Source: Nageia nagi
Lineage: Eukaryota; Plantae; Pinophyta
Reading direction: 5' to 3'
DNA length: 64,000 nt
Assembly: GCA_050084985.1 (NCBI GenBank)
Contig: JBITNC010000001.1
Location: forward strand, 113,274,001-113,338,000
Shown here: in pieces, positions 26,281 through 51,110 of the stretch
How positions within the stretch are numbered: the first letter of the stretch is position 1
Layout of the letters: each line of letters starts with the position of its first letter
Position numbers and translations under genes: made by a program
The notes under the pieces: model-generated
Told to the model about the DNA's origin: nothing
Databases searched by the model: none
Seen by the model: only the letters and a program-made list of their open reading frames with translations

Positions 26281-26684
26281 TCAAATTGATACAAATAATA
26301 CATATTTCCATTTAAAATTCATCATCACATAGTAATATTTCAAATATGGTTTCATTTACATCCTCGATAGTACTCGAGGTCAAATAGGGCCATTAAGCAA
26401 GTCATTATAACTTGTACAAATTATAATGTTTCATAAATAATAGGAAGAAGTACACCCATTCCATGCTTCATTAGTCCACATTGGATGAAATGGGGTAAAT
26501 CACTATATTAATTTTTTATGTATGATTAAATTCAAATTATATGTTATTGTTGTTTAGTATTTAATCAAATTTTATCAACTTTCATATGCATTTTGATGGG
26601 TAACATGGTGTATGCAATTTCATTTTTCAAATCTATAAGTGAGGATCTGAGTATGCTATAAGCATCTGGTGATTACATATCATG

Positions 26685-26696: not shown

Positions 26697-27826
26697 ATAA
26701 GTTATCAAAATTTTAGAGATAAATTCTATGGATTTTCGAGTGCCAAAACCATGCAAGTCTATTTATAGAGCGCCCATGCCTTGATTGTCGATGTTTAGGA
26801 AGAGATCTCAAAGAGCATAATTAATTCTTGAGGATCTTGATATTGGTAGATAGAGAAGAGTGACTATTATGGAACCTATTGATGAAGAACAACTTGAGAA
26901 AATTTGTATCATATCGAATGCCAATTTTAAGAGGATATTTATTGTAATGGAGAATCATTTGGCTATATTGATTGAGCTCTTAGATGGAATTCATTCAAAT
27001 AATAGTCATCAGAGATAACATCATAATGGAAATGAAAGAGGAACTAATGGTACCCTTAATATGGTCCTACTTAGGTGCAACCTTACACACATAATTAGTC
27101 ATATTTTACCTTATTATCACATATTTCTTAGGTTGTGTTCTTATATTTTATGTTAGGTACATTGAGATGACTTCAACGAATATACAAGGGGTAAAATGGT
27201 GAATCATACTTGATATAAATGTAAGCCTCTTTAATCTAGGGAAGGCATGTCAAGATTACATCTCGATAGCTAGTGGCTTACTCTTGGGTGTTTTTAAACA
27301 TCACCTATTGAGATTGTAATCTTATTATCACTCTAGTGAATATCTGTTATCTATTTCTACAATCATATGCTTGATTTAACTTATCATTATCTTTACTATC
27401 ATTGATCCTTATTGGTGAATCTTATTCCTTAGGAACATTTGCATATGTGTTGATGTTCATGCCTATGTTGAGCTCTTAGAGATCCATGCCCATGTTGGTG
27501 TTTCTTTTATAGTTGGCCTTGGGGTTTGCACAACAATATCACCACTCTTTAATAAGTTCATCTATCATACCCTCAACATCGATATAGGTAAGGACACATA
27601 GGTATTTATCTTTAACTCGATTCCTTTCTCTTTAATACATGTAGTTGCATTTTATATCTTGAAATTAATATAATTTCATTATACTATTATTGTAATGTTG
27701 AATTCTCTTATTCATGTATGTTTATTTGAGTTAATTAGCTTAGGTAAATCATACAATAAATGTTTATGTGCTTTTAGTTCATTTAGAGTAAAATCTTAGA
27801 TGATACCAAAACACATATCAACATAC

Positions 27827-28049: not shown

Positions 28050-29799
28050 ATATTCTTAAGATATTTTTTATTACTAGCAATGAAAATTTATATCTTAATA
28101 CTAACCCTATAACTAAAAAACTTAAAAAAGAAGAAGAATTGGTATACCTTAAGTGGTTCAAAGGGAAAGTGAAAGAATTTGTATCAAACACCATCTACCA
28201 ATGTATAAGGTAAGATAACTAAAGAAGCTACTCATAGTGCTCTAGATCAGGAAAGCTTTGCAGATAGCTTTGATAGTTTAGCCAAGATAGTAAATTAGAG
28301 GGTCAATTCAAATAATACAAGATATCAAACTCCTCCAAATCAACAACCTCCTATCAAAACCAAAGAGGAGATCATTTCCTAATTGAGTGATGATGAAATA
28401 TTCAAGAGGGTTATGAATTCCAAGGAGAATATTTTTGATGATGATACAAAGATTTTTGTTGAGGATGAATGTGAGCAAGATGATCCTATAAAATATGAAT
28501 AAATGAATAAGCTTCTAGTAGAGGTTGATACACCATGTCTAGATTGATCAGAGGAAGATAACAAGATCAAAATAAAATTTCTTTATTTAGTTGATGATCA
28601 AGATTTAGCAAACAAGAGTATCCTTGAAAAAGTAAAATACTACAAATGGTTTCTCTACAAAGTACAAAATGATTATACAAATAAAATAGGATTATTTTAG
28701 GTCAATAATAATTACTCAGTTCAATGTACTTGCACAGATGAATGAAAAATATTAGGAAGAAGAAACAAATAGAATTCTTCACTAGGATATGCAACCAATT
28801 CTTGGATGGACTTAAGAAGAAAATGACATCAAGTGTATGAAAATATTAAAATGTAATAGTGATAATATGATATTGATGTCTCATGCTAATAGATAATGGT
28901 TCATATAATCCACATTATATAACATCATATATGAAAGGGATGATAAAATAAGAGCTTTTAAAGTCTTCAGACCTAGACAACATCTAACAACCTTTGAAGA
29001 AGATCAACAATATAAACAAATAATGAAACATGAAAGAGAAGAAATTCTATTTGTCATACCACCTCCACCCATGGAGAATGTAGTGCTAATGATAAAATAG
29101 GATAGATTTGATGGAATACAACAACAAATCAAGATAATAATTAAGTGTAAAGGATTAGCTATCGAACGAAATGAGGATAACAATCTTTTATGCATGTGAA
29201 TCAAAAATACAACATTGTTCTCTTTCAAAGAACTTAAATTTATAAAGTTTGATGGTACTACTAATCCTTGTCTTCATGTATGCATTTTTTTGATGAAGTA
29301 TCTTTAACCACTTTGGATGAGGACTTACATGCCAAGTTATTTTCTTTGTCTCTAAAATGAGAAGCCTCATAATGTTCAACAAATTGCCACATGCTAACAT
29401 TACCAATTTTGCATAATTAAAGATTGTATTTTATGATCATTATCAACTTCATATTGCAAAGAAATTTACATTTAGTGATTTTCTGAAGCTAAAGCAAAGA
29501 GAATGATAGTCTATTGAAAAGTTTATTAGTCTATTGAAAAGTTTATCATATTCTAGACTAAAAAGGCTTATCAAGTTCACATAAATATTGAAATGAAGAT
29601 TATCACTTTCTTATAGGTACTTCAACCAAATTATGTACTAGAATATTTTGATTATCACAATTTACCTCTTGATGCATTCCTATAGGCATTGTTGGAAAAG
29701 GGATAATTCAATATCATATATGGTTATTGGAAACCTGATCAAAGTAAAAAAGGGATAAATCACCCTCACAGCCTCGACATCAGAACAAAAAGGAATAAT
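28050..29799 (+). pseudogene. gag: Degenerate gag, 5' part (continues ~46962-47450)
   Basis: KFIKFDGTTNP..H...F (~29236-29290), LP...ITNFA.L...F, then LKQRE...IEKF, typical of Retrotrans_gag. Confidence 0.7.
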
Positions 29800-30294
29800 C
29801 ATTAGACTAAAAATGGGCTTTGGGGTAAGCAATTTGAGGTGGTTTTCTTATGGCGGTTTTAAATCACCCTAATATTTTATTTTAATGGTGGTTTTTATTC
29901 ACCCTGAAAGAACTAGATGAGGAAGCTAAAAACTACCTCTTCATGAAACCAAAACATAAAAATAAAAATGGACACACGAGGGAATATTTTTGACATTCAA
30001 CATATTTTGAGCTAAGGGGTTAGGAGAGGGGCATTTGGTGTATTTGGCTAAACAAGAGAGGAGAGGGGAGACTAGATGAGAGGAGACATGGTGAGACCAA
30101 ATGATAGGAGACCTGGTGAGACTAGATGATGGGAAATATGTTTTCCTAGGAGGTGTAAGCAAGTATTTCAATCAATGACCTTACAAACTTATAGTATTCT
30201 TTTACATTTTGTATATATGTCCATGCTTTGTATTTTTTTGTATTCTTTCAGAAAATTAGTGAATTATACAAATATTGCAAAACATGAACATCAA

Positions 30295-30560
30295 ACTTGT
30301 CCTAGATGTTGTGTATTCTATCACATGTTTCATGTGTCTATGATTTGTTTTTAGAAAATGCATTTTGTGTATCACACAATCATTAGATATAGTGAAACTA
30401 TGTTTTGTTTATGCATGGTGTCAAATAAATCCTAGGTCTTGTTTTATTCTTCCACATGTTTCATGTGTCTATGGGCCTTTTTTATAAAATCCATTTTGTG
30501 TATCATACAATCATTATAGATTATGAAACTTTGTTTGTGTTATGCATCTTATCAAACAAA
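30295..30560 (-). pseudogene. Two tandem ~134 bp rearranged PPR fragments
   Basis: Minus-strand remnants of LFD.MH..N.VS...MI..YTQNGF..KA joined to .IDT...CGRI.K; the unit is repeated. Confidence 0.65.
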
Positions 30561-30567
30561 ACCAAAA

Positions 30568-31030
30568 CATTCAATTTACAAGAACCAAGTTGATGCATCC
30601 ACACACCCAATTAAAGGTTTATGGGTATTTTGATAATGAAGTTCAAATCTCCCATAGCCTGCATAAACTACAATATTCAATCTATGAGCACCAAGTAGAC
30701 ATATATGCACATCCAATTCATGGTTTATGGGTATTTTGGAAATGAAGTTAAAATCTTCCTCAAGATAGCCTTCTCAAATCATAACATTTCATTTTCAAGC
30801 ACCAAGTAGACACATGCACACACCCAATTTAGGGTTTATGGGTATTTTGGAAATGAAGTTCAAATCTCCCTTAAGATAGTCTGCATGGATCATAACACTC
30901 AATTTACAAGTACCAATTAGACACATGCACACATCCAATTCAAGGTTTATGGGTATTCTAGTAATGAAGTTCAAAGCTCCCTCAAGATAGCTTGCATGAC
31001 CAAGAAGGTCAACATCACATATATAATGAT
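30568..31030 (-). repeat. Four tandem 106-112 bp copies of a PPR S2/E1-junction segment
   Basis: ORF 30795-31130: HYICDVDLLGHASYLEGALNFITRIPINLELDVCMCLIGTCK...YLKGDLNFISKIPINPKLGVCMCLLGA. Units start at ~30570, 30676, 30788 and 30898. Confidence 0.88.
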
Positions 31031-31284
31031 TAATACTATGATTATAGGATATGCATAAAAAAAAAAGACTTGTAGATACTTTTAAGCAGATACAATTGTC
31101 AAGTGTAAAACTAGCTACATGATGAAACACTATACTTTAATAAAGTGTTAAAAAGTAGTCCAAAAGTGGTAATTTGGCAAAAATAAGCTTATAATACTTA
31201 ACAACTATTCAACCCAAAAATTTAAATGCTATGTTGTCTACCTCCACAATAAGTATAATAAGATATAAAGGTTGGATGTCTCTC

Positions 31285-31520
31285 CCCCATGAAACTGTGT
31301 ATGCTTCATGCATCTTGTTAAATAATTATTAGGCCTTATGTATTCTTCCACATTTTGATATATACCTATCAGTGCATTCAGAACCACAACATTTGATGGA
31401 AACCCATTTTCAACTATTCTTTGACAAATGTCCATACCTTCTTCTAGAGCTCCCATAGTGGCATATGTTGGAAGAATGATACATCCCAAGAATAATTCAA
31501 TAAGATTCACTCATGCTATT
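31285..31520 (-). pseudogene. PLS-class PPR fragment (L-S motifs)
   Basis: ILPTYATMGALEEGMDICQRIVENGFPSNVVVLNALIGIY, then after a frameshift KCGRIHKA..LFNKMHEA.TVSW. Confidence 0.9.
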
Positions 31521-32339
31521 AAAGTATTTTTAGCCCTCATCCACTATACTTAGATGGTTGTATGCAAGTATAACACATACACATATTTATATATGTAAAC
31601 AAAACATATATAAAGATTTATCATGGTAGTTTTGTTCTTTACTAAGAGCCTTTTTTATTTTTCACAAAAATGTTCTTAGTAAAGTAAAAAATATAGCCTA
31701 TAAGACCTTATTGAAATATATTACCACTGTACTTGCATCATGCATCTTGTTAAACAATTCTTGGACATTGTGTTTTTTTTCCAACTTATCACTTTGGATT
31801 GGTTTTTAACACTTGGAAAATTTCTTGGTTGAACAATTACTTTCCTTCTCCAAGTCAATTTTTGGATCCTATGGTACTATATTTAAATAATTTCATATCA
31901 CATCATGAATCTTGTCTATCCATGTATTCAAAACCATAAGATTCAATTTACAAAGCACCATGTAGACACATCACATACCCAATTTAGGGTTTATGGGTAT
32001 TTTGACACCTAATATTAATCATAGTAAGTTCAATTATGATGTTGATGATGGATTCCTGAACAATGAACCAATGGAACACATACACATGTCTATATATACA
32101 AGTAGAATAGATACAAAGGTTTCTCATGCTATTAATTTTTTGTTCTTTATAGGATATATTCTAGGATTTGCTAAAAACCCTTTTCTATTTCTCATTCCAA
32201 GAATTAGAAATAGAGAAGGGATTTTATAAAGCACATAATATATGTTGGCCATGGGCTCCTAAAATATGGTCCACTGGAGCTGACCAATCATCGTTATATA
32301 TATTATATAATATATGCAAATGATGAAAGATAAAGGCAT

Positions 32340-32520
32340 GTTCATGATCAAATGCACCATATGATATAAAATGATCCAAATGCACTATATGTTCATGATC
32401 AAGTGCACCAAATGATCCAAATGCACCAACATATGATATGAAATGATCATATTACACCATTTGGTATGAAATGATGCTACTATACCATATGATATGAAAT
32501 GATGCTACTGTACCATATTA
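32340..32520. repeat. ~27 bp degenerate tandem repeat inside the CACTA element
   Basis: Unit about atatgatatgaaatgatccaaatgcacc, roughly 6-7 copies; more copies in both orientations elsewhere in the element. Confidence 0.8.
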
Positions 32521-33569
32521 TTCAAATATGCTCTACTATTCCAATTATTTCTTAAATGAGTTAAATATGATCTACAATACTGCTATCACAACATTCAATT
32601 TAGAAGTATCAAGTAGATACATACATACACCTAAGAAGCACTTATTGAAAAATTGAATTGTAACATATAGATTGATAGGCATGTATGCAAAATATGGAAG
32701 ATATGATGTAGACATAGTTTGATGGACTGTAATGTGGAATATGTATTATGTAGATACAATTTCATATTTTATATCAAAAATTAATTGTATAAAGGTTCTA
32801 ATACAAGCTAGGAAATGAAGTAACCCAAAACATGTTCCATTATTTTCATCTCATCATTCTGTATATACAACACCAAATCCACTTGGGAACCACATATTTT
32901 TGCCAACTTGCCATTTTTGGATTATTTATATCATTTGTAGTTGGCTAAGTATTATAGTTCAGGAAATGAAGGAGCCCATAATATGTTTCATTAGTTTTGG
33001 GTGCTTGAAATATTTTTCATGATTTCAAGTTTTTCAAGTTGAGGGGTTAGAGAAGAGAGTTGCATTTAGATTATTTTATACCATACATATAGTGCACTTA
33101 ATATAATTTCATATCTTATGGTGTACTTAGATCATTTCATATCATATATATGGTGCACTTGACACATTTTCATATCTTTTTTGTCCATATATTGTGATCA
33201 TTATTGGAGGAGAAAGGGGCATTTGTTGTATTAGCAAGACTAGAGAGATGAGGTAAGACCATACATGAGGAGATGTGTTGAGACCAAAGGAGACACAAAA
33301 TAAAGTATTTTGCTTCATCTATGCATTTTTCTATAGAAAAAAATCATTTCATGTCATTATCATATAGTTGCAATTGCCTTTTCATATTGCAATCTCTACA
33401 ATTTTAAGCATTTAGCTTGGTTATGTTGTAACATTATGAACAATGCCAAGGCATAACAGTGATATATCATTTGAGAGATTGCAAATGTAGCTATCCCTAA
33501 TTTTTTTAATTCATGATATTTTGTATAGGTTATGCAAGAGGAAAGACATACAACCTTTATATCTTTTTG

Positions 33570-35647
33570 TGTTATGACCCCATAACATGTATTAGGAATA
33601 GTACTTGTGTTTAGTCCCATATACACTATGCATTGGGTTACTTATGTTGTAAAAGCTATTTATAGGGGGCTTACCTATTATTAAAAGGAAGAATAATTAG
33701 TTGAGTTTTATTTGAGAAGTGATTCTTAAGGAGGTGCCCCCATTGAAGCGGTGTAAGCAATCCATTAGTGTATAATTTGTGTATTTTCATAAGATTAAGT
33801 CATAATTTGATTATAATCCATTAGGATCTTAACATCAGGTTTCAGAGCCACATTTTTGTCTCTTGTGGGTAGTTTATGTGCTTAGTGGTTTTGGATTTTT
33901 GAGTGGTGGGGGATTAACAATTATTAAAAGGAAGAAGAATTAGTTGAGTTTTTTGAGAAGTGATTCTTAAGGAGGTGCCCCCCTTGAAGCAATGTAGCAA
34001 TCCATTAGTGTATAATTTGTGTATTTTCATAAGATTAAGTCATAATTCGATTATAATCCATTAGGATCTTAACATCAGGTTTCAAAGCCCCATTTTTTTC
34101 TCTTGTGGGTAGTTTTATGTGCTTAGTGGTTTTGGATTTTTGAGTGGTTTTGGTTGTATGGGTAGATTTGTGTAGTGTAGGCCCATCTTATCTTTTTGGT
34201 TGATTTATGGGAGATCTAGAGTAGAAGACTGTGAGTGAAAATAGATTCTAGAAGAGAATGAATGTGTAGTAGTTTTGTTGGTAGGAGATGTCTTGAGAGG
34301 ATTCAAGGCTATGCATGGGAATTTGGAAGCATATCTCATAAAGTAAGTGGTAAGGGAGGCTAGATCTAGTTTATGCGATGAAGGAGTAAGGTCATTGAAG
34401 AAAAGTGGTGGTGGTGTAGGAGCGATAGGGAGGAAAAAAACCCAACAACTACATGTTTGGTTGTCAAGATAGAAAGGGGAAAGATCTAATTTTTGCAAGC
34501 TTAAACAAGGGCTTATGAGTATTTGGGGTTTTCTACTATTAGGGATAAATTACATGTTAGAGGGTTTAATTAGAGATTGGAAGGCTTAGAGCTTCAATAT
34601 CATTTTTTCAGTTTATGGAGTCTCATATTTAATTTTTACAAGGATATGTGTTTCATATTTATGCTTTTGGGGATTCCTTATTAGTCTAAAGGGTTTCATA
34701 TGACCAATATTTTTGCATTTTCTCATAAATATCTTTCCAATGGTGTATCACTAGCATTAATCAGAGAACTATAAAAAAAGTTATAGCATTTGGAATGTTT
34801 CTTGATATTGCACCATTTTTGCAATTTGTTTCAATTTCTTTTAAAGTGGTCCTTTTATAGGTTATGAACAAGACCTATTGGACACTCTAAATTAGGATAT
34901 TTATATTAGTTAAAAAAATTTATAATGATGAATACTATTACTACAACATTTCATACTAATTTTGTGCATCATTATATTGATGATTTTGAGGATTTTTGTA
35001 ATGACTATGTGATGGATGAGAAATTAGCCCTTCATTTATTCACTAATGGCTTAAGAGAAGAAGTAAAAAAGAATGTAGTCATTTTTAATCCACCAACTCT
35101 AAGAGATGAATATTAATTGGCTAAGTTAGCAAAGTATATACTTGCATATCCATAGCCTATTATAATTCATGAAAATATCCATGTGGAGCCAGTGGACCCT
35201 ATTATAGAGTGTGAGGACCTTCCTTTCACTTGTATCAATGTGGATGATGTGGCACCAATGGAACCTATTGTAGAGTGTGAGGACATTCCTCTCACTTATC
35301 TTAATACAGATGGTGTAGAGCTAGTGGACCCTATTAAGGAGTATGAGGTCCTTCCTCCACCTTGTATCGATACTAATGATGTGGCTTCTAAGAGTTTGAC
35401 ATGTATTAGGAATAGTACTCATGTTTAGTCCCATATACACTATACATTATGTTACTTATGTTCTAAAAACTATTTATAGGGGATTCCCTATTATTAAAAG
35501 GAAGAAGAATGAGTTGAGTTTTATGTGAGAAGTGATTCTCAAGGAGGTTCCCTCTTCCAAGTAGCATAAGTGATCCATTAGTGTAGAATTAGTGTATTTT
35601 CATAGGATTAAGTAATAATTTGATTATGATCAATTAGGATCTTAACA
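33570..35647 (+). mobile_element. Small internally deleted Met-primed LTR element
   Basis: 5' LTR 33570-33834 (TGTTA...TAACA); 3' LTR ~35399-35647 lacking its start; perfect TSD TTTTG; PBS aggtttcagagcc ~33837; gag-like remnant 34925-35116 (FTNGLREEVK...NPPTL). Confidence 0.88.
35180..35385 (+). repeat. Three ~66 bp in-frame repeats
   Basis: VEPVDPIIECEDLPFTCINVDD-like unit repeated in ORF 35183-35428. Confidence 0.8.
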
Positions 35648-35889
35648 TTTTGTGCTTATTATAGAGGTAAGCAAAGTAGCATATCATATATGATAATGTA
35701 GATAGAATTGTTAATAAAAAACATCTATTAATAATTTTATCTGTATCAGTATCATTCTTATCATAGTAGTTTTTCATAAGTCAATGCTTATAATTATGTC
35801 ATTATTATTTATAAATTGCAAGTGCAAAGAGAGCACCAAGTATGTCATTTCTCATGACTCAAAATGCTTAGTAACTTGTCAAGTACTCG

Positions 35890-36750
35890 ATGAATCATTA
35901 TACATGCAGTGTTGATCTTTGTGGCCATATAGGCTATCTTGAAGAAGTTTTGAACATTATAGATAGTGCGTTTGGTTCATTTTATGTCATATGTTGTACT
36001 TAGATAAGAAACATAGCATTTAGATTTCTTGTTATAATTATTGTGGAGGTAAGCAACATTGCATTTAAATTTCTAGGTTGAATAATTGCTAAGTATTACA
36101 AGCATGTTTTTGCCAACTTACCATTTTTGGATTGGTTTTGATACTTTCTTAAAATATAGTGTTTCATTATGGGTTTAAAATGATAATAATCAATCATCAT
36201 ATTAAATATTTTAATTAGGGAATCTTTATTTTAGCTATGAATTGCATATCTTGCAATCATTGTTTCCATTAAATTATATGGGAACTTAGGTAGTATGTTG
36301 CTTTCCTTCTCCAAGCTAGTTTTATACCTAATAATTGCATCTGATTAAAATTCTCTACAACCTTTCATTTTGGGCATATCCTAAAATTGTAAAGTTAATC
36401 ATTATACATGCATTATTGAACTTCTTTTGCGTATAGACTATCATAAGGAATCTTTGAACTTCACCTTCTACAATGATTTTATGATGCACACAAAATGGGT
36501 GTTCTAAGAATTAAAGGCCCATATACATATGAAATAATTCTCAAGAATTGTGTTTTGTTTGATATTTTGCATACATGTCTATCAGGTCAGTCACAAGCAC
36601 AAGATGCATGATGAAAATATAGTTTCATGGTCTACAATCATTGTAAGATTCCTAGGCTTTCTAAAAGAATGTAGAAAAATTCAAAGCACCAATTGCCCCT
36701 AAGTACCAGAATGCCCATAAACCTTAAATTGGGTGTGTGGATGCATCAAA
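35890..36750 (+). pseudogene. Scattered plus-strand PPR fragments within the CACTA cargo
   Basis: NHYTCSVDLCGHIGYLEEVLN (~35894), NHYTCIIELL...YHKESLNF (~36398), KMHDENIVSWSTII (~36601), MPINLKLGVWM (~36712). Confidence 0.8.
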
Positions 36751-37799
36751 ACCTTTTTATAAATAAATTTTGACATGTAATATGGAATGATTTAAATACA
36801 CTATATAATGTAATATGAAATGATTTAAATACACCAAATGCTCCTTTCCTCTTCAACCCCTCAACTTGAAAAACTCAAAATGACAAAAATAATTCTCAAG
36901 CCTTGTTTATTGTTTCACATTTTGTATACATGAAACAATTCTCAAGCCTTCTTTATTGTTTCACATTTTGTATACATGTGATATGAAATGATTTAAGTAC
37001 ACCATATGATCCAAAAATTAGCTCAAAGAAGGAAATAAATTATTCTGTAGATTCTTAAAAATGAATTATTATTCATTAAATAATTCATTTTAAACCATCA
37101 AAGAATATTTATTGTAAATAGGGTTAAAGTATACCCCAAGGCAATATAATCAATGTAATGGACCATAGTATAATGTAAAGGGTGTCAAATATCAAGAAAG
37201 ATACCACAAATAATGTAATATGCAATGATCCCAAGAATCAAAGAGGATTAAGATGTTGCTATAAAAGAATATCAAAGGCAACAAAATCTATCATTTGAGG
37301 AGGATCGATAGATATCAAAGAGAGAAACCAATAACATGCAATATAATTCCATCTGACCAACAATAGTATTTTGTAACACCACCTTTGCATAGATCTAGTA
37401 AACCCTCCATTTCACTTGTTCACATCTTTGCTTCTATTTGTAGATCTATGTCTTCCATGTAGCTAACGATTTGCTTCTTGGCCATTGGTGGCATGTGTTT
37501 CCTATGGTGTATTATGGTGATGGATGTGTGATCTTTATTACTTTATGTTGATATGAATACAATGAAGGTACATTGATTATCATATTCATTTGATGCCATA
37601 TTTCTGATATATGCTTAAATATTACATTGTATATGAATAGTGCTTTGTTTATCACTTGTGCATTATTTTTGGTCTACATTTTGGTGAACTTGATTATTTC
37701 AATTAATCTTTCTCTACTGATAAGATCTCATAAGATTTTTGTAAAGGATATACACCATTAGTGGCATGCATTGACTCTTTCTACTTTGTAAGTAGTGTA

Positions 37800-40700
37800 A
37801 ACATGGAAGAAACTTTGGCAAAGATGGCATGGTTGGAAAAATAATTGGAAGCTCTATGTAATACAATGGCCTTAATACAAAACTCTAGCAATAGTTTGCA
37901 ATCAGTTTTAGGTCTAGCACTAGCTGCAAGGTTAACCAATATTGAGAATAACAATAGATTTTATAAAAAATAAGACTATGATGGGGTATTCACCTCACCT
38001 TTATCAGATGATATCCACAATTATCCCCTACCACTCGAGCATAAGGATCCCAAGTTTGAGATGTTTAGTGGCAAACAAGACCCAAAGCAACATCTTATCA
38101 ACTTTTAGGAGGAGTGTTTGTTGATATTGGGATTGGAGGAGGGATTGATGGCCAAATTTTTTTCAAGAAGTTTAAAAGGTAATGCTAGTCAATGGCTCTA
38201 TAATTTGCTAAGGGAATCAATAGGTAAAAGTGTTCATGGATCAAAACAAGCATAATGTTAAAGAGAAAGGAACTATTACAAAGTTTTGTGCAATGCACTA
38301 AGAAAACAATAAAACCCTAGAGAAATATATTTCAAGGTTTAAAAAGGTATGGTAATCTATTCATAGTAAATTGGATGAAATTGAAATTTATGGTATAGTT
38401 AGAGATTCTATTTTTCCAATCATTAACTTGCATGCTTCAAGTAATATAAATATTGAATTTGGGGTATTAGTACATGAATTGTTGCAAAAAGAGAAAGTTT
38501 TTCTTGATTTAGGAGATCTCAAGTATACATATACTCTTTACACTAAGGATAATCATAGGAAATATATAACGAAAGAGGAAAAGACAATGAATATGGATGA
38601 TACACCTAACTCTCCACCTTAATTGATAAGATCAACTACAACAAGAGAAAGAAGGTATACATTTCCAATCCAACCAAGGTTTATGATGAGAGATCTAATA
38701 TAAAGAGGTTTATTATATCCATTAGAGAAAATAAAACAACATGATAATATTCCTACTGAAAAATTTGATGCTTATTGTACTTATCGTCAAAGAAAAGTTC
38801 ATGCTACAAATTTTTGTAAAGCATTGGAGGAAGCAATTTTGGATCTTATTACTTAAGGGAGATATGAGATTGATCAAAAAGATTTATATCAATAGGTAAT
38901 AGTGAACATAGTCTCAATTGATAAAGAAGTTTTTGCTAGATTATAAAAGAGGCATCCAATACATATTCCAAGTTCGGTTACTATTGAACAAGTGTGTGTC
39001 CCACCTGATCCAAAAAATTATAGCATGATTGAGCAATTGAAGACTACTCTTGATAAAATTAGTTAGTATAATCTCATATTTACATTTGAAACACATAGGA
39101 AAATACTATATGATTTGTTCAAAAAAGAAACAATCCCTATAAATATGTTTGTGACCATGTTTTCAAAAAAACTTAGATCTATTAAGGATTATGATGCAAT
39201 CTCTTTTTATAGATATTAAAAACTTAGTAAAGAACTCCTTGCTAAATGTATAACTTTATATATCACACCTATGATAGATGGATGGGATATAAAAAAACCA
39301 TTGGTGATAATGACTCAAATGTTAATGTTTGTTCTCATAAATTTTTGATACAACTTCAAGAACAAGGTATAGAAATACCTACCTTAGAAGAAGCTACTTT
39401 TAGAATTAGGGAATATAATAGTTCATCTAAAAAGCTAGTTGGGATAGCTACAATTTTGATTACAATAGGAGCTAGAATAGTTATAACTTAGTTTTAGGTT
39501 ATGGATTCAAAATGATCATATAACCTATTGTTAAGAAGACCTTGGATTCATGACATGGATGTAGTCCCATATACAATACATAGTAGATTAAAATTTGAAT
39601 ATCAAGGTGAGGTACATACAATAATTGGTGATCTAGAACCATATGCCTTATGTAATTCAACTGAATTTAAAGAATTCATAATGATCTTTCCTAGATATAT
39701 ATAGGATTATACCTTTGGAAATAGGTGCATTAATGGTCAATGCAAAATAATAGCCTCATATTGTAGAAATAGGTGTGGGAACATACAAAATTAAAAATCT
39801 TGATCTATTCACATCCTTTAAATATTTGGTACAACCAAAAATTCTAAGTCTTGAAGGTTTTTAGTGGTGTGCCATACTTCTTTAAGGCTACCAATGACAT
39901 GGAAATAGTGAAGACGATGGGGGATCTTCCTCTATAGCAACACTATCACTTAATCCAAAGACATCCACAAAGGATCACATGATAAATGTAATGGGTAAAA
40001 CCTTTCCATCTCCTTGTGTTCACAAGTACATGATAGAAAATTACAAATATAAAGAAGGTGTATTGGGTAAATTAGAATAAGGAATGTCTTCTTTTCCTAC
40101 TACTTTAGAAGCTCAAAAAAATAAGAATCGATTGGGTAGTGATTATAATATAAAACAAATAATGAGACCTATAAAGTTTATAAAAGAATGTAATTTGATT
40201 GAACTTTCTGAAGATATTGATGAAGATTTATAGCTTGATTATATTAGTATACCACTTAAGTTTTATTGCTTCAATACTAATGATATTTTAAAATAGTTGG
40301 GGGCACATTTAGAATTGCCTAAGTCCAATCAAATATGAAAAAAAAGCTATATTCTTAATGAGTATGCATATTTTGTACAAGAAGTGAATTTAAATGAAGT
40401 GTTTCAAGTCCAACAGGGAGATGATGATACAAGTGATATAGAAGGATTAGAAGAGCTACCTTCATTATTGCAAAAAAAGGATGAATTAACATTCTCAAAA
40501 GAAAAGATAATAGATGTCAATATTGGGACAAGTGATGAGCAAAGGTTGGTCAAATTTGGAGCAACCCTTCCTACACCTCAATAAGAAAGGTACTAAAATA
40601 AATTTATTGAAAATAAAAATAATTTTGCTTGGTCTTATGCTGATATGCTTGGTTTAGATCTTTCTTTTGTTATGCATAATTTAACACTTAAAAATGGAGC

Positions 40701-43700
40701 TAATCCAATTAATCAAAAACCTAAAAAGATGCATCCTTCCAATGCATTGTTAGTTAAAAAATAAATAGAGAAGTATTTGAATGTTGGATTCATTAAACCA
40801 ATTGATTATTTAGAATGAATGGTTAACATTATTCTTGTTACAAAACCTACTGGAGAAATAAAGGTTTGTACTGATTTTTGTTATATCAATAATGCTTATC
40901 CAAAACATGATTTTCCATTACCTAATATTGATATGATTATGGATAATATTTCTAGTCATGATACTTTATATTTTATGAATGGATTTTTGGGATATAACCA
41001 AATACTAATCAATCAATTTGATCAATATAAGACTAGTTTTACTACTTTATAGGGAAATTTTTATTAGAAGGTTATGCCTTTTGGATTGAAAAATGCAATT
41101 GCTACTTACTAAAGGGCCATAGTGTCAATATTCCTTGAGCACATTCATAAATTAGTAGAGGTATATGTTGATGACATATTGGTAAAATCAAAGCAAGGAC
41201 AAGACCATTTAGAGCTCCTTGAAGAGGTATTTCAAATCCTAAAGAGGTATAAGCTTAGAATCAAACATCAAAAGTGTAATTTTGTTGTTACTTCAGGAAA
41301 ATTGCCTGGATCCATGGTATCAAAAAAGGGTATTAAGGTAGATCCTAAGAAGGTTAAAGCCATAGTAAGCATCTCCACTCCAAGGAACCTTAAGCAGCTA
41401 AGGAGTCTTCAAAGAAAGATAAATTTGGTAAGAAGACTCATTTCTCAACTTAGAGATAAATGTAGGCCATTAACTCATTTTTTGAAAAAATATGTCAAGT
41501 TTGTGTGGGATGAAAAATTTCAAAAAACATTTGAGGATATAAAGAAATACTTGTTAAATCCTCCAATATCAATACCCATGTATTTTATAAAATGTACAAA
41601 ACCAACATATCTTTACATATCAGCCACTTTGTATGCCTTGTGGGCAATGTTGTGTCAGAAAGATAATGATAATAAAGAAAGAGAAATATACTACCTTAGC
41701 AAAACTCTTATTGATTATGAAACTAGATACACACCTATGGAAAAGCTTTGATTTGGTATTATTTTTGCTACAAAAAAATTAAGACATTATCTTTTTTATT
41801 GCACTACATATGTTGTTAGCCCAATTAACCCACTGAAATATCTAATAGCAAAACAACATTTATTAAGAAGAGTAGCTAAATGGTGGATGTTATTGCAAGA
41901 ATTTGATATCAATGTGGTAAAGAAAAAATCCATGAAAGGATAGGAAATCATAGAATTGATAGCAAAATTCCCTTAGAATGATGGTACAATGGTACATGAA
42001 GAATTCCTAGATTATTATAATGAGGATTCATGCAACCAACGGTGTGAAGTACTAATAAAAGGTTGCTAACAGCTTGACATTGATGAAATGAAAATCTCAT
42101 ATGAGTTTGTGTGCTACATAGAAGATGAACCTATAGCTTGGACCCTATATTTTGATGGATCCAAATGTTATTACAGAGCAGGGGAAGGTATTGTTTTAGT
42201 ATCTCCTACAAATGAGGTAATTCCTTTGGCTTATAAACTTAGATTTGAGTGCACCAATAACATGATAGAATATGAAACTTTGATTTTGGGATTAAAAGCA
42301 TATATAGCTTTGAAAATAAAATATTTAGAGATTTATGTTGATTCATAGCTTGTGGTAAATCAAGTTAATGATACATACAATACAAAGCATGAAAAGCTAA
42401 AGCCATATAAGATAGTGGTTACTAAGTTGCTTGATGAGTTTCATAGGTACAATATTTGAAATATTTCAAGGAATAATAACAGGTATGTAGATGCAATGGC
42501 AAGTGCAACTTTATTGGCACTAATTGAGATAGAAGATGAAGAAACTATCCTTAAGATTTGAAAGCTTGGTACAACTTCTTACCTTGATCACATAGATGAA
42601 GTACATACAAGCCACTTAGAAATAGATAGTGATCCTTAATAATGGTATGATGATATTTACAATTATTTAAAATATCAAATAATTCCATCAAGTTTTGATA
42701 GAAATGAAAAAGTTAGATTAAAGAGGACAACTATTAAGTATGTGATTATTGGTGAAGTATTATATAGAAGGTCATTTGATGGTGCTTTATTGAGATATCT
42801 AACACAACATGAAGAAACAAAAGAATTAGAAAAGCACATGATGGGTTTTATGGAGGAAACTTCTATGCAAAAGCATTGTATACTAAGCTTTTACAAATTG
42901 GGTACTATTGGCCTACAATGGAGGAAGATTATAAGAATTATGTTAAAACCTATTTACATTGTCAAAGCCATGCAAATTTGGAGAAACAACCAACTCAAGA
43001 GCTGAATTCCATAGTTTCACCTTGGACATTTGCAACATGGGCCATAGATTTGATTGGGCTTATCAATCCACATTCAAGGGAAGGTCACAAATTCATTATT
43101 ACAACCACAAAATTTACCACAAAATGGGTTGAAGATATTCCAATGAAGCTAGTCACACAAGATAAGATCATTGCATTCTTGATAGAGAATATCATAACCA
43201 GATTTGGAGTACCACAAAGTTTGATCATAGATAATGGGCCAAAGTTTAGAGGTAAAAACATGAAATCCTTTTGTAAAAAATTTCACATTTCTCAAATATT
43301 TTCTTCATTTTATTACCCTTAAGGCAATGTTCAAGTAGAAGCATCAAATAAAACTATTAAGAGCATTTTGTCAAAAATATGGTATAGATACAAGGTAAAT
43401 TGGCATGAGGAGTTACCTTATGTAGTTTGGGCATGCAAAACTAGTATTAGAACAACCATTGGGGCAACACCATTTTCATTAGTCTATAGAGATGAAGCTA
43501 TAGTACCATTAGAGTTGGAGTTGTCATCCTTACAAATTTTATTACAAGGAGAAATATCAGATGAAGAAGCAAGGAAAGTTAGATTGCAATAGTTGGAAAC
43601 ACTTGATGAGAAGAGAATCAAGGCAATTGAACATCAAAAAACTTATCATGCAAAACTAAAAAGGGCATTTGGAAAGAAGATAAAATCAAAGGAATTCAAG

Positions 43701-43900
43701 GTGGGAGAATTGGTACTAAAAGAAAATATTAACAAGACAACTGCACATGATGAAGTCAAAGGAAAATTTGTATCAAATTAGCTAGGTCCATTTGTTGTAA
43801 TTAAAATAATAGGATCAAAAGCTTACAAATTATCATACATGGATGGAAAAGAATAATAAAAACTCTTTAATGAAATGCATCTTAAATGCTTCTTTGCATA
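37800..43900 (+). pseudogene. pol: Degenerate gag-pol polyprotein
   Basis: RT KHDFPLPNID...VEVYVDDILVKS (40819-41751); aRH WTLYFDGSK...CTNNMIEYETLILGL (42088-42348); integrase YYWPTM...PWTFATWAIDLIG...ITRFGVP...DNG (42876-43322). Many stops. Confidence 0.95.
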
Positions 43901-44109
43901 AGATAATGGATTTGAACCTTGCAAATTAACAAATATTTTATGTAAGGTACATGTATTTTATTTTTCATTTTCATTTATGTAGTTTCTTTCATTGCTTCAC
44001 ACAACTGACAACATGCATTACTATTTGTACATTGCCAACTACATAAGAAAAAGACATAATAAAGAGGAAAGAAAAAGAAAATGACAGTATAATATCTATG
44101 AACCAAGGA

Positions 44110-44430
44110 CATGGTCACCGATGGTCATTGATATGGCTAGTGAGAGTTCACTCACTTAAAATATAAACCAATGATGTAGCCATGAAAAAGATGGCGATAT
44201 TGATTCATCCTCAATGGATGATACAACTTGCTATGTATCCATGCAATTTTTTATTTGAACCATATAAAGTATAATATCTTAAGATCATATACATAAAATA
44301 TATGATCATCGATAGCCATCGATACGGCTAGTGAGAGTTCACTCACTTAAAAGATAAACTAGCAATGCATTTGTAAGTAGATTGTTGATAGTGACTTATT
44401 ATCAATGGATGATGTAACTCACTATGTATC
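44110..44430 (+). repeat. ~192 bp duplication in the 3' UTR
   Basis: ggctagtgagagttcactcacttaaaa at ~44134 and ~44326 with matching downstream sequence. Confidence 0.8.
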
Positions 44431-47400
44431 TACAATGTTTTAATATAGAGTATATATAACACTTTTTTTCAGGTATCTACATTAAAATAAGGAAATAAAC
44501 TCATGCATAAACCATGTTGTTAACAATGTATAAACACTATTTTCATGCAGCCAAAAATATGAATGATAATGAATCAAAGGTGCAAATAAAAGCAATTTTT
44601 TTTTTGTATCAAGGAATGGATGTAAGAGAATCAGATTCTTAAGTATCAAAAATGATGAAACAACTAGATCCATGATTGAATATTGTAAGGGGAAAATATT
44701 CTCTTCTATTTCAAAGATTGGATGTGGGACCATAAGACTCCCTAGTAGTAGAGACAAAGGAATAAAGTTCCTTCCATGGAAAAAAGATATAGTTCTTTAA
44801 GTTTTATCTTGGACACACCACTTAAGGATCTTTCCTAGGGAAACCAAGTCAAAAGGGGGTAGCAAAGGACCCTCATCATGAAATGGAAGTGTTGGATAAC
44901 GAGTTCAAAGTTCTTAAAAATTTCTTCTATACTTTTTAATTGGATATGTAATTTCATTGCTTTAATCACACCTCCAAAGAGAGGAAACATTTAGATGCCT
45001 AAATATGAATTATTATTTATTAAATAATTTATTTAAAAATATCAAGAAATATTTATTGTAAAGAGGGTTAAAATATACCTCAAGGTAATGTAATCAATGT
45101 AATGGACAATGGTATAATGTAAAGGGTGTCAAATATCAATAAACAGACACACAAACAATTTAATGTGCAATAATCCCAAGAATCAAAGAGGATCAAGACG
45201 TTGCTATAAAAGAATATCAAAGAAAACAAAATCTATCATGTGAAAAATATTAGTAGATATGAGAGAGAGAAACCAATAACATGCAATATCATTCTATTTG
45301 ACCAAAAATAATATTTTGTAACACCACCTCTCCATAGATTTGTTAAACCCTTCATTTTGCTTGTTCATATCTTTGCTTCTATTTGTAGATCTACTTCTTC
45401 CACATAGCTAATGACATGCTTCTAGGTAGTTGGTACTATGCATTTCCTATGGTGTATTATGGTGATGAATTTATGATCTTTATTACTTCATGTTGATGCA
45501 AATGCGATGAAGGTACATTGATTATCATATTCATTTGATGCCATATTTCTGATATATGCTTCAATATTATATTATATATGATTAGTGCTTTGTTTATCAC
45601 TTGTGCATTATTTTTGGTCTACATGTTCAACATGTGATATGAAATAATTTAAATACACTATATGATCCAAAAACTCAAAATGACTAAAACATTCCATGTG
45701 CTTGCCTAAGTTGGCAAAAAACATGGTAGTAATAGATAGCCAAACAAAAAAAAAAAAAGTGTTTCCTAAGTGGTTCATCAGATCAAAGTTTAAGGGCATC
45801 CATATTGTAGCCATGAATTGCATTTTCTCTACCCATTGAAATCCATGAGACTATGTATGCATCATGCATCATCCACATTTTATATTCATGTATATAAGGT
45901 TTTATGTTTCATTTCATTTATTTTAAAAAATGATACTTAGGTGTGTGGATGTGTCTACTTGGTATTTGTAAATCAAAATGTTGTGGTAGTAGTATTGTAG
46001 AGCATATTTGAATAATTTGAGAAATAATACTTGATCATTATTGTGGCATTATTGATCATTTGAGCATAATTGTAGAGCATATTGGATCTTATTAACCTTC
46101 TTCAAAACATTATGTTTGCATCATGCAACTTATCAAATAATTACCAAACCTTGCATTATATATTTATATCTCACAATCATTGTATACAATGAAATTGTGT
46201 TTGCATCATTTATCTTGTCAAACTATTCTTAGGTCTTGCATCATGCATTTGCTTAAAATTCCATAATTTTCTATCATATGGTAGACTTGGATAATTTCAT
46301 ATCATATGTTTGAAGCATCCATGTTAATTGTGTGGTAACATAATGATTATATATGTATTGAGAGCTTCTAATGCATGATGTTTTGAATAGGTTATCTTGG
46401 AAGAAATATATCTTATTGTATAGGTAAGAAAACATAACTTTTAAATTTCTAGGTTGAATAGTTACAAAGTACTACACATAAATAATAATACATACATACA
46501 TACATATATATATATTATATATGATTGGTCAATTCTATAGGGCCATCCTTCAAGATTCCAAGGCCAACATCATAAATGGGCTAACTATGATCGAGCTTGG
46601 GTGCATCGGGTAAATCGAGGATGACATTTAAGAATGATTTTAGGCTACAGATAACTATGCAATGATTTTTAACCATAGTCTATACCTATAAAGTGGTTGC
46701 TTAAACCAACACCTTAAAAACTGAGGTAGGTTCAGGGGTAGTTATAGCTGCCTACATTGGTTAATATAGAGATGGTTTATACTCATTGCTATATGATAGT
46801 AGAAGGAATTTTTGGGTAATATATATTGGTGGTTTTTAGTTTCCATCATAGAGAAGGGACTTTTGGAGGTGGGGTCATAGGCAATGGGAAGATAACCACC
46901 AATAAATATGATATGTGATGATATATAACCACCTCTAAAAGCCCTTTCTAATCTAGTGAATCTTATGAAGCACAAATAGTAGCCAAAGTGAAATAGGTAC
47001 AATACCCTACAACAACATCAAATGATATTTGAAAGTTAAAAAATATGAGAAATAAATCTATATAGAGTGTCAAAAATTTCCTAGATGGAAATCCACACCC
47101 ATCTATGATGATATTGATAAAGTAACAAGAAATTTAATCAAATAAAAGTTATTGGTTTCACCATAAAAGGATACAAATCAATTTTTTTTTTAGCAAGAGT
47201 ACCAAAGGAGTACAAATTGAATGAGTTATATGAGTATCATCAACAATGAGGGTATTTAATAGTGTATTTTGTGGCATTACTCAATAAGATTTAGGACCTA
47301 ATTGATCAAAAGAAGTTAGCTTTCCCAGAACTAAAATTTGATGATCAATCAAAGTAATTGAGAGGTTATCAACATGAGAAGAACAAGACTATGGGCATCT

Positions 47401-48499: not shown

Positions 48500-51110
48500 T
48501 TCTAACATAGCTACCAGTACCATGGTGACTACTACCACTCCAAAAGCTTTTGGACTTTGAGGTCCTCCTACTCAAACTTGGCCTCTTTGGCCTAGTTGGT
48601 TCCTCCAAATCTATAAGTTAAGCTTGTAGGTGTCCATTATTGCCCAATACATCTTTTATATTCTTGTTTTATTGAAGCAAACAATCCATTATTCATAGGA
48701 AGTTGTGATCCCATAAATTTTGGTGCAACTTATATAGGGTCTTCATGCTCTACTCAAGAGCCTCTAGTCTCACCTTAAACACCTCTATCTCTTGATATTT
48801 TGTAGTAGTCTCATCCTTCAATATTATTAGGGATTCCTTAACTTATTTCCTTACTAATTTCTTTGAGTCTATGTCCAAGTTTGTTTGATCTACAAAAAAA
48901 TAAAACAAAGCATGCATATTAGTCATATTATTATTTCATAAAAACTAACTTGTAGGTATATAAAGAAATATACTTACTAAGCTCATTCTACGATGGGAAT
49001 CTCAATGGAAATATCCCATCCTCCATGTTCACCATATTATGATGGCTCCTTCACCCATACATCCTTCTCTTCTTCATCATCCCCATCATTTTCCTCTTCC
49101 TCTTATTCCTTTTCCTCTCCCTTAGGAACCTCTGGTAACCACTCTAATCCATACAATCTAAGTGGATCAAGTCTCACTCCATCCCACCATGTAAAATAGG
49201 CTTGATCAAAATATGGCCTATCAAGATATTCATCTCCCTTACTATTTGAATCACTACCCAACCCATGGTCTTGGGGAGGTTACCATTCCTCCACCCATTT
49301 AAGAGTAGTCTCATATAAATTAGGGTCATGTACCCTATACCTACCTATCCTAACTAGAAACTTGCATTCTTGTGGAATGACCTATCTTTGACCAAATTAC
49401 CTCATGATAATCTCAATTTTATATGGATCCACAAATGAATTATGCATCTACAAGTATCTTGGTGTGCACTACGAGTCTAGCTCACCACCTATCTTATTTT
49501 TCCAATAAGGTATAGCTAGATAGCGTCTATAGTTCACATCTCCTAGAAAATAAAAGTCATGAGTTAGTCTTTTCCATTAACTAATAATCATGAGTTAGTC
49601 TTTTCCATTAACTAATAAGCCAACAAACTAAACCATATATGGTAAATTACTTACCATCCATCAAACCATCCATGAATTTCTTATACGTATCCACAGTCTT
49701 GTGTACCCATGTAATCTTTCCATGCTTCATCCATTGATACCACATCGGATGATCAAGAGCTATGCCATGTATAAGAAGCTCTCTAGGATGAACCATGTAA
49801 ATATACTTATACATCCAAAATTGAAGAATAAATAAATGTGCCACTCTCTTCCCACTCTTCTATACCATGAAAAAGTTATGTAAATCATGGTAAATCTAGG
49901 GAATGATATAAGGTGCCCATGTATATCGATGACCCTATGTCATCTCATAGACAACTTGTATCAGTCCAAGTGAAAATACCTCATGATTCTTATCTAGGTA
50001 TGCAATGATATCAATACATGTTTCCATAACAAATCAAACACATGTGAACCTCTTCATCTTGCTCCTAAAAAAATGAAGGAAGGCACCCTTTGTCACCTCA
50101 TGATACTCTAAAAAACCTTTAATCCAATTGGCTAATCATTTGCATTGTTCTTAATCATTTCCTCCTCAAAGAATATATATTTTCCCTTCATAGGAACCCA
50201 TATAATCTTATGAATATCCTCATACACTATAGTAATCTCCCCAGTAGGAAGATGAAATGTGTTGGTCCTCTCAGACCGTCTCTCCATCAAGGTTGTCAGT
50301 AGCTCCTTGTCCAATTGAACATATGGAGCATGGAGGAGCCATCCCTTACCAACAAATTGTAACACACCTATATACTCCTCTATGAGATTATCCTTCATCA
50401 CCAAGTACTTCTTCCAACTCTAATACAGACTCAAGATCCATGAGGAATTGATAATACTGCAAGCACAAATCAATAAGGTACACATTAGTTTTTGATATAA
50501 TTTCAATATACTCATAGTACAAAAATTTTGTTTAATTATTTCTAGCACATATAACTAAATACCACACCTAGATAAACATTTTTCCATCCTAAAATTAACT
50601 CTACTGCATCAACACCCATGCTAATGTTAGCACCCATGTTAATGTTAGTGCTCGCATTGGGCTTTCCACGATCACTTTTCTCAAAAATTAGAGGCAAACT
50701 CCCTTTATTCTCAAGATTCAACAAAATATTGATTTAACATCCAAATAACACTTCTAAATATAAAAATGAATAGGCCCTATGTCACTAAAACCATGCCTTC
50801 AAAACCCATGATTTTACATTTGTCACTTATTCATAGGAAAAATTCACAAAATTAAAACACTAGGTTGATTTTAGACACTTACCACATGAGTCAAAACATT
50901 GTTGTATCACAAGAGGTAGGCCCTATGGTTCTCTTGCTTTGTAATCTTCATCTTGGAGTGCAAAATTGAGTCAAAGATTTAGAAAACACCATGAAAATAG
51001 ACCAAATTATTTTAATTCACAAACCAAATCGCTTACCTAGTAATGATGATCACCCATAATGCTCCAAATCATCTCAACAACCTTACCCAACTCTTCTTTG
51101 ACTAGAGCTC
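48500..51110 (-). pseudogene. Multi-exon plant mobile domain (PMD) pseudogene, antisense within the LTR element
   Basis: ORF 50132-50404 LLTTLMERRSERTNTFHLPTGEITIVYEDI (PMD signature); RYTWAPYI...IYHDLHNF; LQFWMYKYI; IMR.FGQ..VIP. GT-AG introns at 48890-48977, 49543-49654 and 50457-50882, a further donor at 51036 and a candidate ATG at 50951. Confidence 0.85.

What the first reader, a model, noticed from the sequence alone, without database searches (positions are those of the whole stretch)
29800..46958. Pack-CACTA whose cargo is a shuffled collection of PPR motif fragments
Seen: TIRs, AAT TSD and subterminal repeats define one CACTA element. After removing the two nested LTR elements about 6.5 kb remains, with no transposase and many 40-250 bp pieces of PLS-PPR coding sequence, non-collinear, duplicated and on both strands. 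Known: CACTA elements capture gene fragments, and PPR families are common small-RNA targets. Inference: repeated sampling of one gene family suggests a mobile PPR-fragment cassette that could supply trans-acting siRNAs or reshuffle motifs.
Basis: partly seen in the sequence, partly recalled or inferred. Interest (0 to 1): 0.8.

Follow-up and report, generated by a model that had tools for sequence, protein, structure and literature searches.

The report
Conifer transposon scrambling one PPR gene
An old cut-and-paste transposon, likely from a cypress- or yew-type conifer, is packed with about twenty jumbled pieces of an RNA-binding (PPR) gene that likely come from one captured gene segment copied, flipped and shortened inside the transposon family, not from many separate genes.

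Summary
The element is real. 29800-46958 is one insertion: other copies of the host repeat read straight across the site with one AAT (24 of 30 bases in register), and the left end meets unrelated flanks in 9, 10 and 7 contigs of three of four runs. Without the two nested LTR elements 6.5 kb remains, with no transposase match and 18 PPR pieces above the control maximum (14 minus, 4 plus). 'Repeated sampling of a gene family' is not supported. All pieces come from one roughly 200-codon stretch (P1 end to E1 codon 15). All 8 E1 copies share residues found in 0 of 73 intact clade proteins. Copies differ evenly across codon positions (27/32/21). One new E1-to-S1 junction recurs in 7 places here and in 27 of 42 short database ORFs. 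The element's own arm sequence is shuffled the same way. Best reading: an old, silenced Pack-CACTA whose single captured segment was scrambled internally, giving a PPR-derived 111-bp tandem repeat. Small-RNA output is untested. The scan noted Pack-CACTA-like elements before in moss and fungi, none with PPR cargo.

The parts
29797..29799 (.). Left target-site duplication AAT
   Evidence: empty-site contigs hold one AAT
29800..29822 (+). Left TIR, CATTAGA... (other copies CACTAGA...)
   Evidence: loose ends before 29799 and 29803
29823..30134 (+). Left arm: GGYGGTT subterminal motifs at 29838, 29852, 29887; 29985-30104 has copies inside the cargo
   Evidence: (7 contigs join 29822-29846 to 29899-29936)
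30300..30563 (-). 131-bp tandem pair, each with an S1-end/P2-start PPR piece (29.8 and 30.3 bits)
30559..31034 (-). PPR-derived tandem array, 4 x 111 bp (S2 second half + E1 codons 1-15 + S1 codons 1-4), headed by a longer S2 piece
   Evidence: contigs that go back from 30991 to 30559 suggest longer arrays elsewhere
31032..31113 (+). Inverted P-motif pieces abutting the minus-strand S2 piece; the junction is also in database ORF P0011 and duplicated at 36314-36463
31287..31583 (-). L2-S2 start joined out of order to L1-S1-P2 start (one frameshift at about 31357)
   Evidence: 62.9, 99.5, 45.9 bits
31725..33290 (.). Mosaic of weak PPR pieces (E1-S1 junction copies at about 31935 and 32587), 18-33-bp AT-rich tandem repeats, a 90-bp palindrome (32154-32243) and copies of left-arm sequence (33007-33076, 33212-33291)
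33570..35647 (+). Nested deleted LTR element A (TG..CA, TSD TTTTG, 5' LTR region tandemly duplicated; LTR K2P 0.131)
   Evidence: no Pfam match in 3 plus frames
35653..37045 (.). Middle cargo segment: S2 pieces (+, 35887, 36394), S2/E1 piece (+, 36699-36749), P1, S1 and P2 pieces on both strands, inverted left-arm copy (36827-36895)
37046..45623 (+). Nested decayed Ty3/gypsy element B (636-bp LTRs, K2P 0.144; RT, RNase H, a second RNase H-like domain, integrase)
45629..46570 (.). Right cargo segment: S1/P2 pieces (-, 45786, 46166), E1-S1 junction copy (+, 45935-45990), inverted copies of left-segment blocks
46571..46935 (-). Right arm with subterminal motifs at 46828, 46894, 46927; no internal repeat
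46936..46958 (-). Right TIR, CACTAGATTAGAAAGGGCTTTTA on the minus strand
46959..46961 (.). Right target-site duplication AAT

Best explanation
This is a transposase-less CACTA element, inserted as one unit into another repeat, whose PPR cargo likely descends from a single captured gene segment that was then likely duplicated, inverted and trimmed inside the element family. Shown: the termini belong to a repeated family, the 3-bp duplication and empty site, two later LTR insertions, pieces only from P1-end/L1/S1/P2/L2/S2/E1(1-15), 83 internal repeat pairs, and shared derived residues and junctions. Inferred: an ancestor took up about 600 bp of one cupressophyte PLS-E/DYW PPR gene; a first rearrangement joined E1 codon 15 to the start of S1, probably through a shared Ser codon; repeated template switching during gap repair or replication then made direct and inverted copies of 25-330 bp of both PPR and arm sequence, including 231-bp and 111-bp tandem units; a transposase supplied in trans moved the element here before the LTR insertions. 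The copy is now likely methylated and inert.
For: Empty site and family termini. One 198-codon span of the gene supplies all pieces, 176 codon positions represented; no E2/E+/DYW/N-terminal piece at 30 bits. L-G/D-V/M signature in 8 of 8 E1 copies and 0 of 73 intact clade proteins. Even codon-position differences 27/32/21, chi2 p=0.32; tandem copies differ by 37-43% in amino acids at only 14-19% in bases, while intact paralogues differ by a median 24% in amino acids. E1-to-S1 junction in 7 places here, 27 of 42 short database ORFs and 0 of 126 intact proteins; 15 ORFs have the 111-bp unit and 8 the 231-bp unit. Collinear relics of the same segment exist: P0169 and five similar ORFs outscore all 126 intact proteins for 9 of 21 pieces. 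40 direct and 43 inverted internal pairs cover 64% of the interior and include arm sequence. 9 of 10 internal blocks have K2P 0.18-0.31, older than the LTR pairs at 0.13-0.14. Contigs of 205-320 bases from other copies cross several mosaic junctions at about 80-85% identity (records 2, 4, 11, 12, 17, 18, 24, 26).
Against: No second complete element was seen: no genome is held, the metagenome scan for the termini gave 2 chance prokaryotic matches, and the right end was never tested against reads on its own. Summed contig depth is about 34,000 over 30453-31103 but about 330 at the left terminus in X1 (not copy numbers), so most PPR-like sequence may sit outside this terminus family. For 12 of 21 pieces an intact protein scored at least as well as the best collinear relic. 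The template-switching step has no direct evidence beyond one possible 3-4-base microhomology. The short ORFs were found with mosaic queries, and 4 of the 27 are near-duplicates of others.
Confidence: 0.7

Rival explanations
1. The mosaic was scrambled in another vehicle (a Helitron, another TIR family or a PPR-derived dispersed repeat) and this CACTA later picked up a ready-made stretch of it.
For: PPR-like contigs are about 100 times deeper than the left terminus; no contig joins a terminus directly to a PPR piece.
Against: Left-arm sequence tied to the terminus by 7 contig joints recurs, direct and inverted, among the PPR pieces (29985-30045 to 36827-36891; 30024-30104 to 33212-33291). Each element holds about 8-10 S2/E1 copies, and intact genes and collinear pseudogenes add to the depth (259-362 contigs in X1 and X2 continue with native gene sequence at 31478).
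Confidence: 0.17
2. The element captured pieces from many different PPR genes in successive rounds, for example by hopping inside PPR gene clusters.
For: The donor clade is large (73 of 126 intact proteins fetched) and Pack-CACTAs often hold several loci (PMC8903248 section 10). Best intact matches differ from piece to piece.
Against: Shared derived residues (8 of 8 vs 0 of 73), one shared breakpoint, no third-position excess, and nothing from outside one 198-codon span.
Confidence: 0.08
3. The locus or its family is a maintained small-RNA source (TAS-like or hairpin) that regulates the expanded PPR clade.
For: PPR genes give profuse phasiRNAs in spruce (PMC4651229 passages); captured fragments cause siRNA cross-talk in maize (10.1101/777037 abstract); 217 overlapping inverted 21-mer pairs with at most 2 mismatches occur in the interior.
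Against: Only 4 perfect inverted 21-mers, at two places, each with partners 4-6 kb apart across LTR-A; neutral divergence; CpG observed/expected 0.03-0.10; two old LTR insertions; 0 Rfam matches at E up to 1.
Confidence: 0.05

Closest known systems
Pack-CACTA elements of Arabidopsis, maize and rice (Catoni 2019, PMC6379663, abstract and section 17 read; Gisby and Catoni 2022, PMC8903248, abstract and sections 9-10 read)
   Same: Non-autonomous, CACTA termini, host coding DNA inside; in those papers fused family members give internal repeats of element sequence.
   Different: Their cargo is described as pieces of one or several distinct loci gained between neighbouring insertions. Here one segment is present as about 20 permuted and inverted pieces mixed with the element's own arm sequence, and half of the internal repeats are inverted, whereas 27 of 28 neighbouring Pack-CACTA1a pairs were direct.
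CACTA elements with internal tandem arrays (Jozin, Chenopodium; PMC8978399, passages read)
   Same: TIR plus subterminal repeats, captured gene fragments and captured or generated tandem arrays.
   Different: There the arrays and gene fragments are separate additions beside a transposase; here the tandem unit is itself made of captured coding sequence and there is no transposase.
TE gene-fragment capture in conifers (Platycladus genome paper, PMC13477047; abstract, section 12 and passages read; supplements not seen)
   Same: Capture is very common (about 400,000 fragments per gymnosperm genome), old, and donors are more methylated.
   Different: Most TEs there hold one fragment (13.68% hold two or more); 'PPR' and 'pentatricopeptide' occur 0 times in its main text; scrambling of one donor is not described in the parts read.
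Cupressophyte PLS-E/DYW PPR clade (Cryptomeria and Taxus proteins such as P0019, P0029, P0031; lineage-specific PLS duplications in PMC9545813, passages read)
   Same: S2/E1 pieces carry the GYLEE(A/T)LNFIIK...W(M)CLLGAC signature of Cryptomeria and Taxus proteins rather than the GHLDEAQDFINK form of the Ginkgo ones.
   Different: The pieces are non-coding, lack E2/E+/DYW and carry a signature not seen in any intact protein fetched.
PPR-targeting TAS and PHAS loci (spruce PHAS loci in PMC4651229, passages read; TAS1/TAS2 and TAS-like loci recalled, not read)
   Same: Non-coding sequence with PPR homology.
   Different: No transcript, trigger site or phasing shown here; this is a decayed transposon interior.

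Membership tests
CACTA (En/Spm) superfamily | Termini begin CACTA/CACTG and are inverted repeats | tested here: met
   Right end CACTA; left end CATTA with one transition, other copies CACTA. The pair alone is not above shuffles.
CACTA (En/Spm) superfamily | 3-bp target-site duplication | tested here: met
   AAT on both sides; empty-site contigs hold it once.
CACTA (En/Spm) superfamily | Short subterminal repeats in both orientations (definition in PMC8978399) | tested here: met
   6 of 12 window GGYGGTT/AACCRCC motifs within 135 bp of the ends; fewer and shorter than textbook arrays.
CACTA (En/Spm) superfamily | Autonomous partner with Transposase_21 and the same termini | not testable with these tools
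   No genome held; no transposase match in 18 frames of the interior.
Pack-CACTA | Non-autonomous and carries host coding DNA | tested here: met
   18 PPR pieces above control; longest stretch free of internal repeats is 388 bp.
Pack-CACTA | Several paired copies with conserved ends and related cargo | tested here: inconclusive
   Left terminus at many loci and mosaic junctions in other copies, but no second full element and no contig from terminus to cargo.
Pack-CACTA | Cargo from several distinct donor loci (common, not obligatory) | tested here: not met
   PPR pieces trace to one segment; the non-PPR interior is unassigned.
TAS-like / PHAS locus | Transcribed, miRNA-triggered, phased 21-nt siRNAs that act on PPR mRNAs | not testable with these tools
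   Only DNA contigs could be laid; 0 Rfam matches.
Functional PLS-class PPR gene | Open frame with ordered P-L-S triplets and P2-L2-S2-E1-E2 | tested here: not met
   Out of order, both strands, stops and frameshifts, no E2.

The most novel reading that the evidence does not exclude
Cupressophyte genomes hold a very large, undescribed CACTA family that turned one RNA-editing-factor gene segment into thousands of scrambled, partly inverted copies and a PPR-derived minisatellite, and small RNAs from this family silence or tune the lineage's expanded PLS-E/DYW PPR clade: a transposon-gene conflict at the scale of a whole gene family.
Probability: 0.15. Interest if true: 0.75.

Novelty: new variant of a known kind. 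Interest (0 to 1): 0.45.

Why it matters
It shows a second route to Pack-type cargo: not collecting many genes but scrambling one captured segment, with dated steps (collinear relic, first junction, 231-bp unit, 111-bp unit) that can be ordered across copies. That makes the poorly known rearrangement step inside Pack elements testable in a conifer assembly, and records the birth of a tandem repeat from coding sequence. In practice such pieces may inflate PPR gene and pseudogene counts in cupressophytes and could feed siRNA cross-talk onto RNA-editing genes. This copy itself looks dead, gene capture is common in conifers, and no function is shown, which caps the interest.

Tried and rejected
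Whole-genome search for paired termini: no genome held. Related-locus searches with P0002 (viral) and P0003 (prokaryote genomes) and a junction pattern found nothing; these collections are not plant collections. Sequencing runs: no RNA holder listed, which says nothing on expression; all 10 holders had small shares (0.05-0.13) and 4 of 13 runs were laid. Pfam missed every PPR piece, so its silence on transposase is weak by itself. TIR+TSD score against shuffles was not significant. A frame at 46530-46700 gave ORC4 at E=0.2, treated as chance; the opposite frame and other unassigned stretches gave nothing credible. Local donor: the collinear PPR pseudogene at 23929-25150 matches the cargo only at 69-76% over 50-88 bases and is far less CpG-depleted (0.59), so decay in place or capture from it is rejected. 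P0022 and P0030 are unrelated low-complexity hits and were left out. The Cryptomeria repeat library of PMC5846777 is a .fas supplement that cannot be read here; it and the supplements of PMC13477047 may already list this family. No tree was built: the pieces are 11-44 residues and decayed. Ten literature searches listed no paper on a PPR-fragment CACTA; subscription journals are mostly not covered.
Full report
Boundaries. The sequence shows AAT|CATTAGACTAAAAATGGGCTTT at 29800 and, on the other strand, CACTAGATTAGAAAGGGCTTTTA ending at 46958, followed by AAT. Taken alone this pair is weak: it tied for the best score (10) among 1008 candidate pairs in the window, and the best pair in 20 shuffled windows scored 8-13. 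The case rests on other evidence. Six of the 12 GGYGGTT/AACCRCC motifs of the 64-kb window lie within 135 bp of the two ends. Contigs from 4 of 13 listed public runs were laid on 29680-30020. In X1, X2 and X7, 9, 10 and 7 contigs stop matching just before 29799 with unrelated flanks, and those that stop before 29803 end in CAC, restoring CACTA. In X3 and X7, contigs of the flanking repeat leave the window at 29797-29800 and go on with the sequence right of 46961; the consensus tested matches 24 of 30 bases in the register with one AAT and 6-14 in the 8 other registers. One X3 contig covers 29746-29865 without a difference, so the left junction exists in another sample. The whole 17.2 kb is therefore one insertion with a 3-bp duplication. 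The target is itself a repeat, with a weak gag match just upstream (E=0.045).

Nested elements. LTR-A spans 33570-35647 (TG..CA, TTTTG on both sides) and LTR-B 37046-45623 (636-bp LTRs, TATTC/TGTTC, with RT, RNase H and integrase matches). Their LTR pairs differ by K2P 0.131 and 0.144, so both insertions, and hence this copy of the CACTA, are old. About 6.5 kb remains. Pfam found no transposase in its 18 frames; Pfam also missed the PPR pieces, so the better argument is that the longest stretch free of internal repeats is 388 bp.

The PPR pieces. A 79-residue frame at 30795-31034 matches a synthetic PPR-DYW protein (E=0.0067). Among 43 hits in the representative library, the five named intact proteins looked up are from Cryptomeria japonica and Taxus chinensis. 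The S2/E1 signature of the pieces is that of the Cryptomeria and Taxus proteins, not the Ginkgo ones, so the host is inferred to be a cupressophyte conifer. A codon-level profile from 74 such proteins finds 18 pieces at 30 bits or more inside the three cargo segments (reversed-window maximum 29.0), 14 on the minus and 4 on the plus strand, 33-132 bp long, 1324 of 6501 bp in all; 0 fall in the LTR elements and 8 in a separate pseudogene at 23929-24976. A DNA profile built from the pieces gives 20 hits and at most 39% coverage (partly circular). Order is not that of the gene: reading the minus strand from 31583, L2-S2 start is followed by L1-S1-P2 start, then inverted P pieces, then S2-E1 four times, then S1/P2 twice.

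One donor, not many. All pieces map to one 198-codon span from the end of P1 to E1 codon 15; nothing from the N-terminus, E2, E+ or DYW reached 30 bits. S2 and E1 occur once per gene, so their 8-10 copies mean either that many donors or duplication after capture. Three tests favour duplication. First, all 8 E1 copies have L-G/D-V/M before the conserved W position, and 0 of 73 intact clade proteins do. Second, differences from the column majority fall 27, 32 and 21 times on codon positions 1, 2 and 3 (211 cells each, p=0.32; one spurious 3-codon placement was left out). Paralogues under selection would differ mostly at position 3 (established knowledge); here three tandem copies differ by 37-43% in amino acids at 14-19% in bases, while intact paralogues differ by a median 24% in amino acids. 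Third, 7 copies break at E1 codon 15 and join the start of S1. The junction reads K-S-N or K-L-N, as expected from CpG decay of a TCG Ser codon common to both sides, a possible 3-4-base microhomology (inference). Against this reading: no donor DNA was available, and 12 of 21 pieces score at least as well against some intact protein as against the best of six collinear relics.

A family, not a one-off. The E1-to-S1 junction is in 27 of 42 short ORFs from Logan, JGI and ENA records (4 are near-duplicates; all were found with PPR or mosaic queries) and in 0 of 126 intact proteins; 15 show the 111-bp unit seen here and 8 a 231-bp unit. P0011 shares the inversion junction at 31034. P0169 and five similar ORFs are collinear versions of the same segment and outscore every intact protein for 9 of 21 pieces. 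Contigs of 205-320 bases from other copies cross several mosaic junctions. Summed contig depth is about 34,000 over the tandem array against about 330 at the left terminus in X1. These are not copy numbers, and intact genes and collinear pseudogenes add to the first figure, but the gap leaves open that much of the mosaic lies in other elements. No second complete element was seen.

Internal scrambling. Eighty-three repeat pairs above the control (40 direct, 43 inverted; median 49 bp, 81% identity) cover 64% of the interior. They include non-PPR sequence: left-arm DNA recurs at 33007-33076, 33212-33291 and, inverted, at 36827-36895. Nine of 10 blocks measured have K2P 0.18-0.31, older than the LTR insertions; one 46-bp tandem pair is younger (0.045). 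The neighbouring-insertion model (PMC6379663 section 17; PMC8903248 section 9) can explain the first capture and direct repeats of arm sequence but not so many short inversions. Template switching during repair of excision gaps is the most likely source; this rests on my own knowledge of Ac/Ds and Spm derivatives, since one search listed only one related paper, which I did not read.

Function. The copy looks inert: CpG observed/expected is 0.03-0.10 in the cargo against 0.59 in the nearby pseudogene, frames are broken, and Rfam gives 0 matches. Only 4 perfect inverted 21-mers exist, at two places, with partners 4-6 kb apart. PPR genes do yield phasiRNAs in spruce (PMC4651229, passages) and captured fragments cause siRNA cross-talk in maize (10.1101/777037, abstract), so family-level cross-talk is possible but untested.

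Comparison and verdict. It is a CACTA by termini, duplication and subterminal motifs, and works like a Pack-CACTA. It differs from the described ones in that one captured segment has been permuted into about 20 pieces and has produced a tandem repeat. Gene capture by conifer TEs is common (PMC13477047, abstract and section 12; no mention of PPR in its main text; supplements not seen). Ten searches listed no description of this family; PMC13317346 (passages) and PMC5846777 (passages; its repeat library unreadable) added none. New variant of a known kind; interest 0.45.

Noticed in passing
window 23929-25150 (+): A separate, collinear, decayed PLS-PPR pseudogene (8 pieces at 30 bits or more) with CpG observed/expected 0.59, far less depleted than the rest of the window (0.13); only 69-76% like the cargo, so not its donor.
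   Followed up: partly
window about 29370-29800 and 46962 onward: The CACTA sits in a repeated sequence with a weak Retrotrans_gag match (E=0.045), probably a decayed Ty3/gypsy element.
   Followed up: partly
window 33665-34148: The 5' LTR region of LTR-A is tandemly duplicated (240 bp, K2P 0.047), much younger than the LTR pair; the 3' LTR lacks its first 15 or so bases; a 3 x 66-bp in-frame repeat lies at 35181-35384.
   Followed up: partly
window 42070-42348: LTR-B has a second RNase H-like domain between RNase H and integrase, which from memory is typical of Tat/Ogre-type Ty3 elements.
   Followed up: no
window 32242-32316 and 46503-46660: An unassigned, CpG-bearing stretch present twice in inverted orientation (72%); may be a second captured fragment; no credible database match.
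   Followed up: partly
P0169, P0167, P0170, P0165, P0032, P0035: Unnamed database ORFs that look like collinear, decayed versions of the same PPR segment, some running past E1 codon 15: candidates for the pre-shuffling form.
   Followed up: partly
window 49660-50420 (-): Plant mobile domain (PF10536) remnants to the right of the element.
   Followed up: no
window 27050-27823 and 52576-53342; 26433-26661 and 58082-58306: Direct repeats of 785 bp (78%) and 229 bp (85%) that bracket the region, probably LTRs of older nested retroelements.
   Followed up: no
L001, L002: Chance matches of the terminal pattern in prokaryotic metagenome contigs; the two overlap the same coding sequence; unrelated to the finding.
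   Followed up: yes
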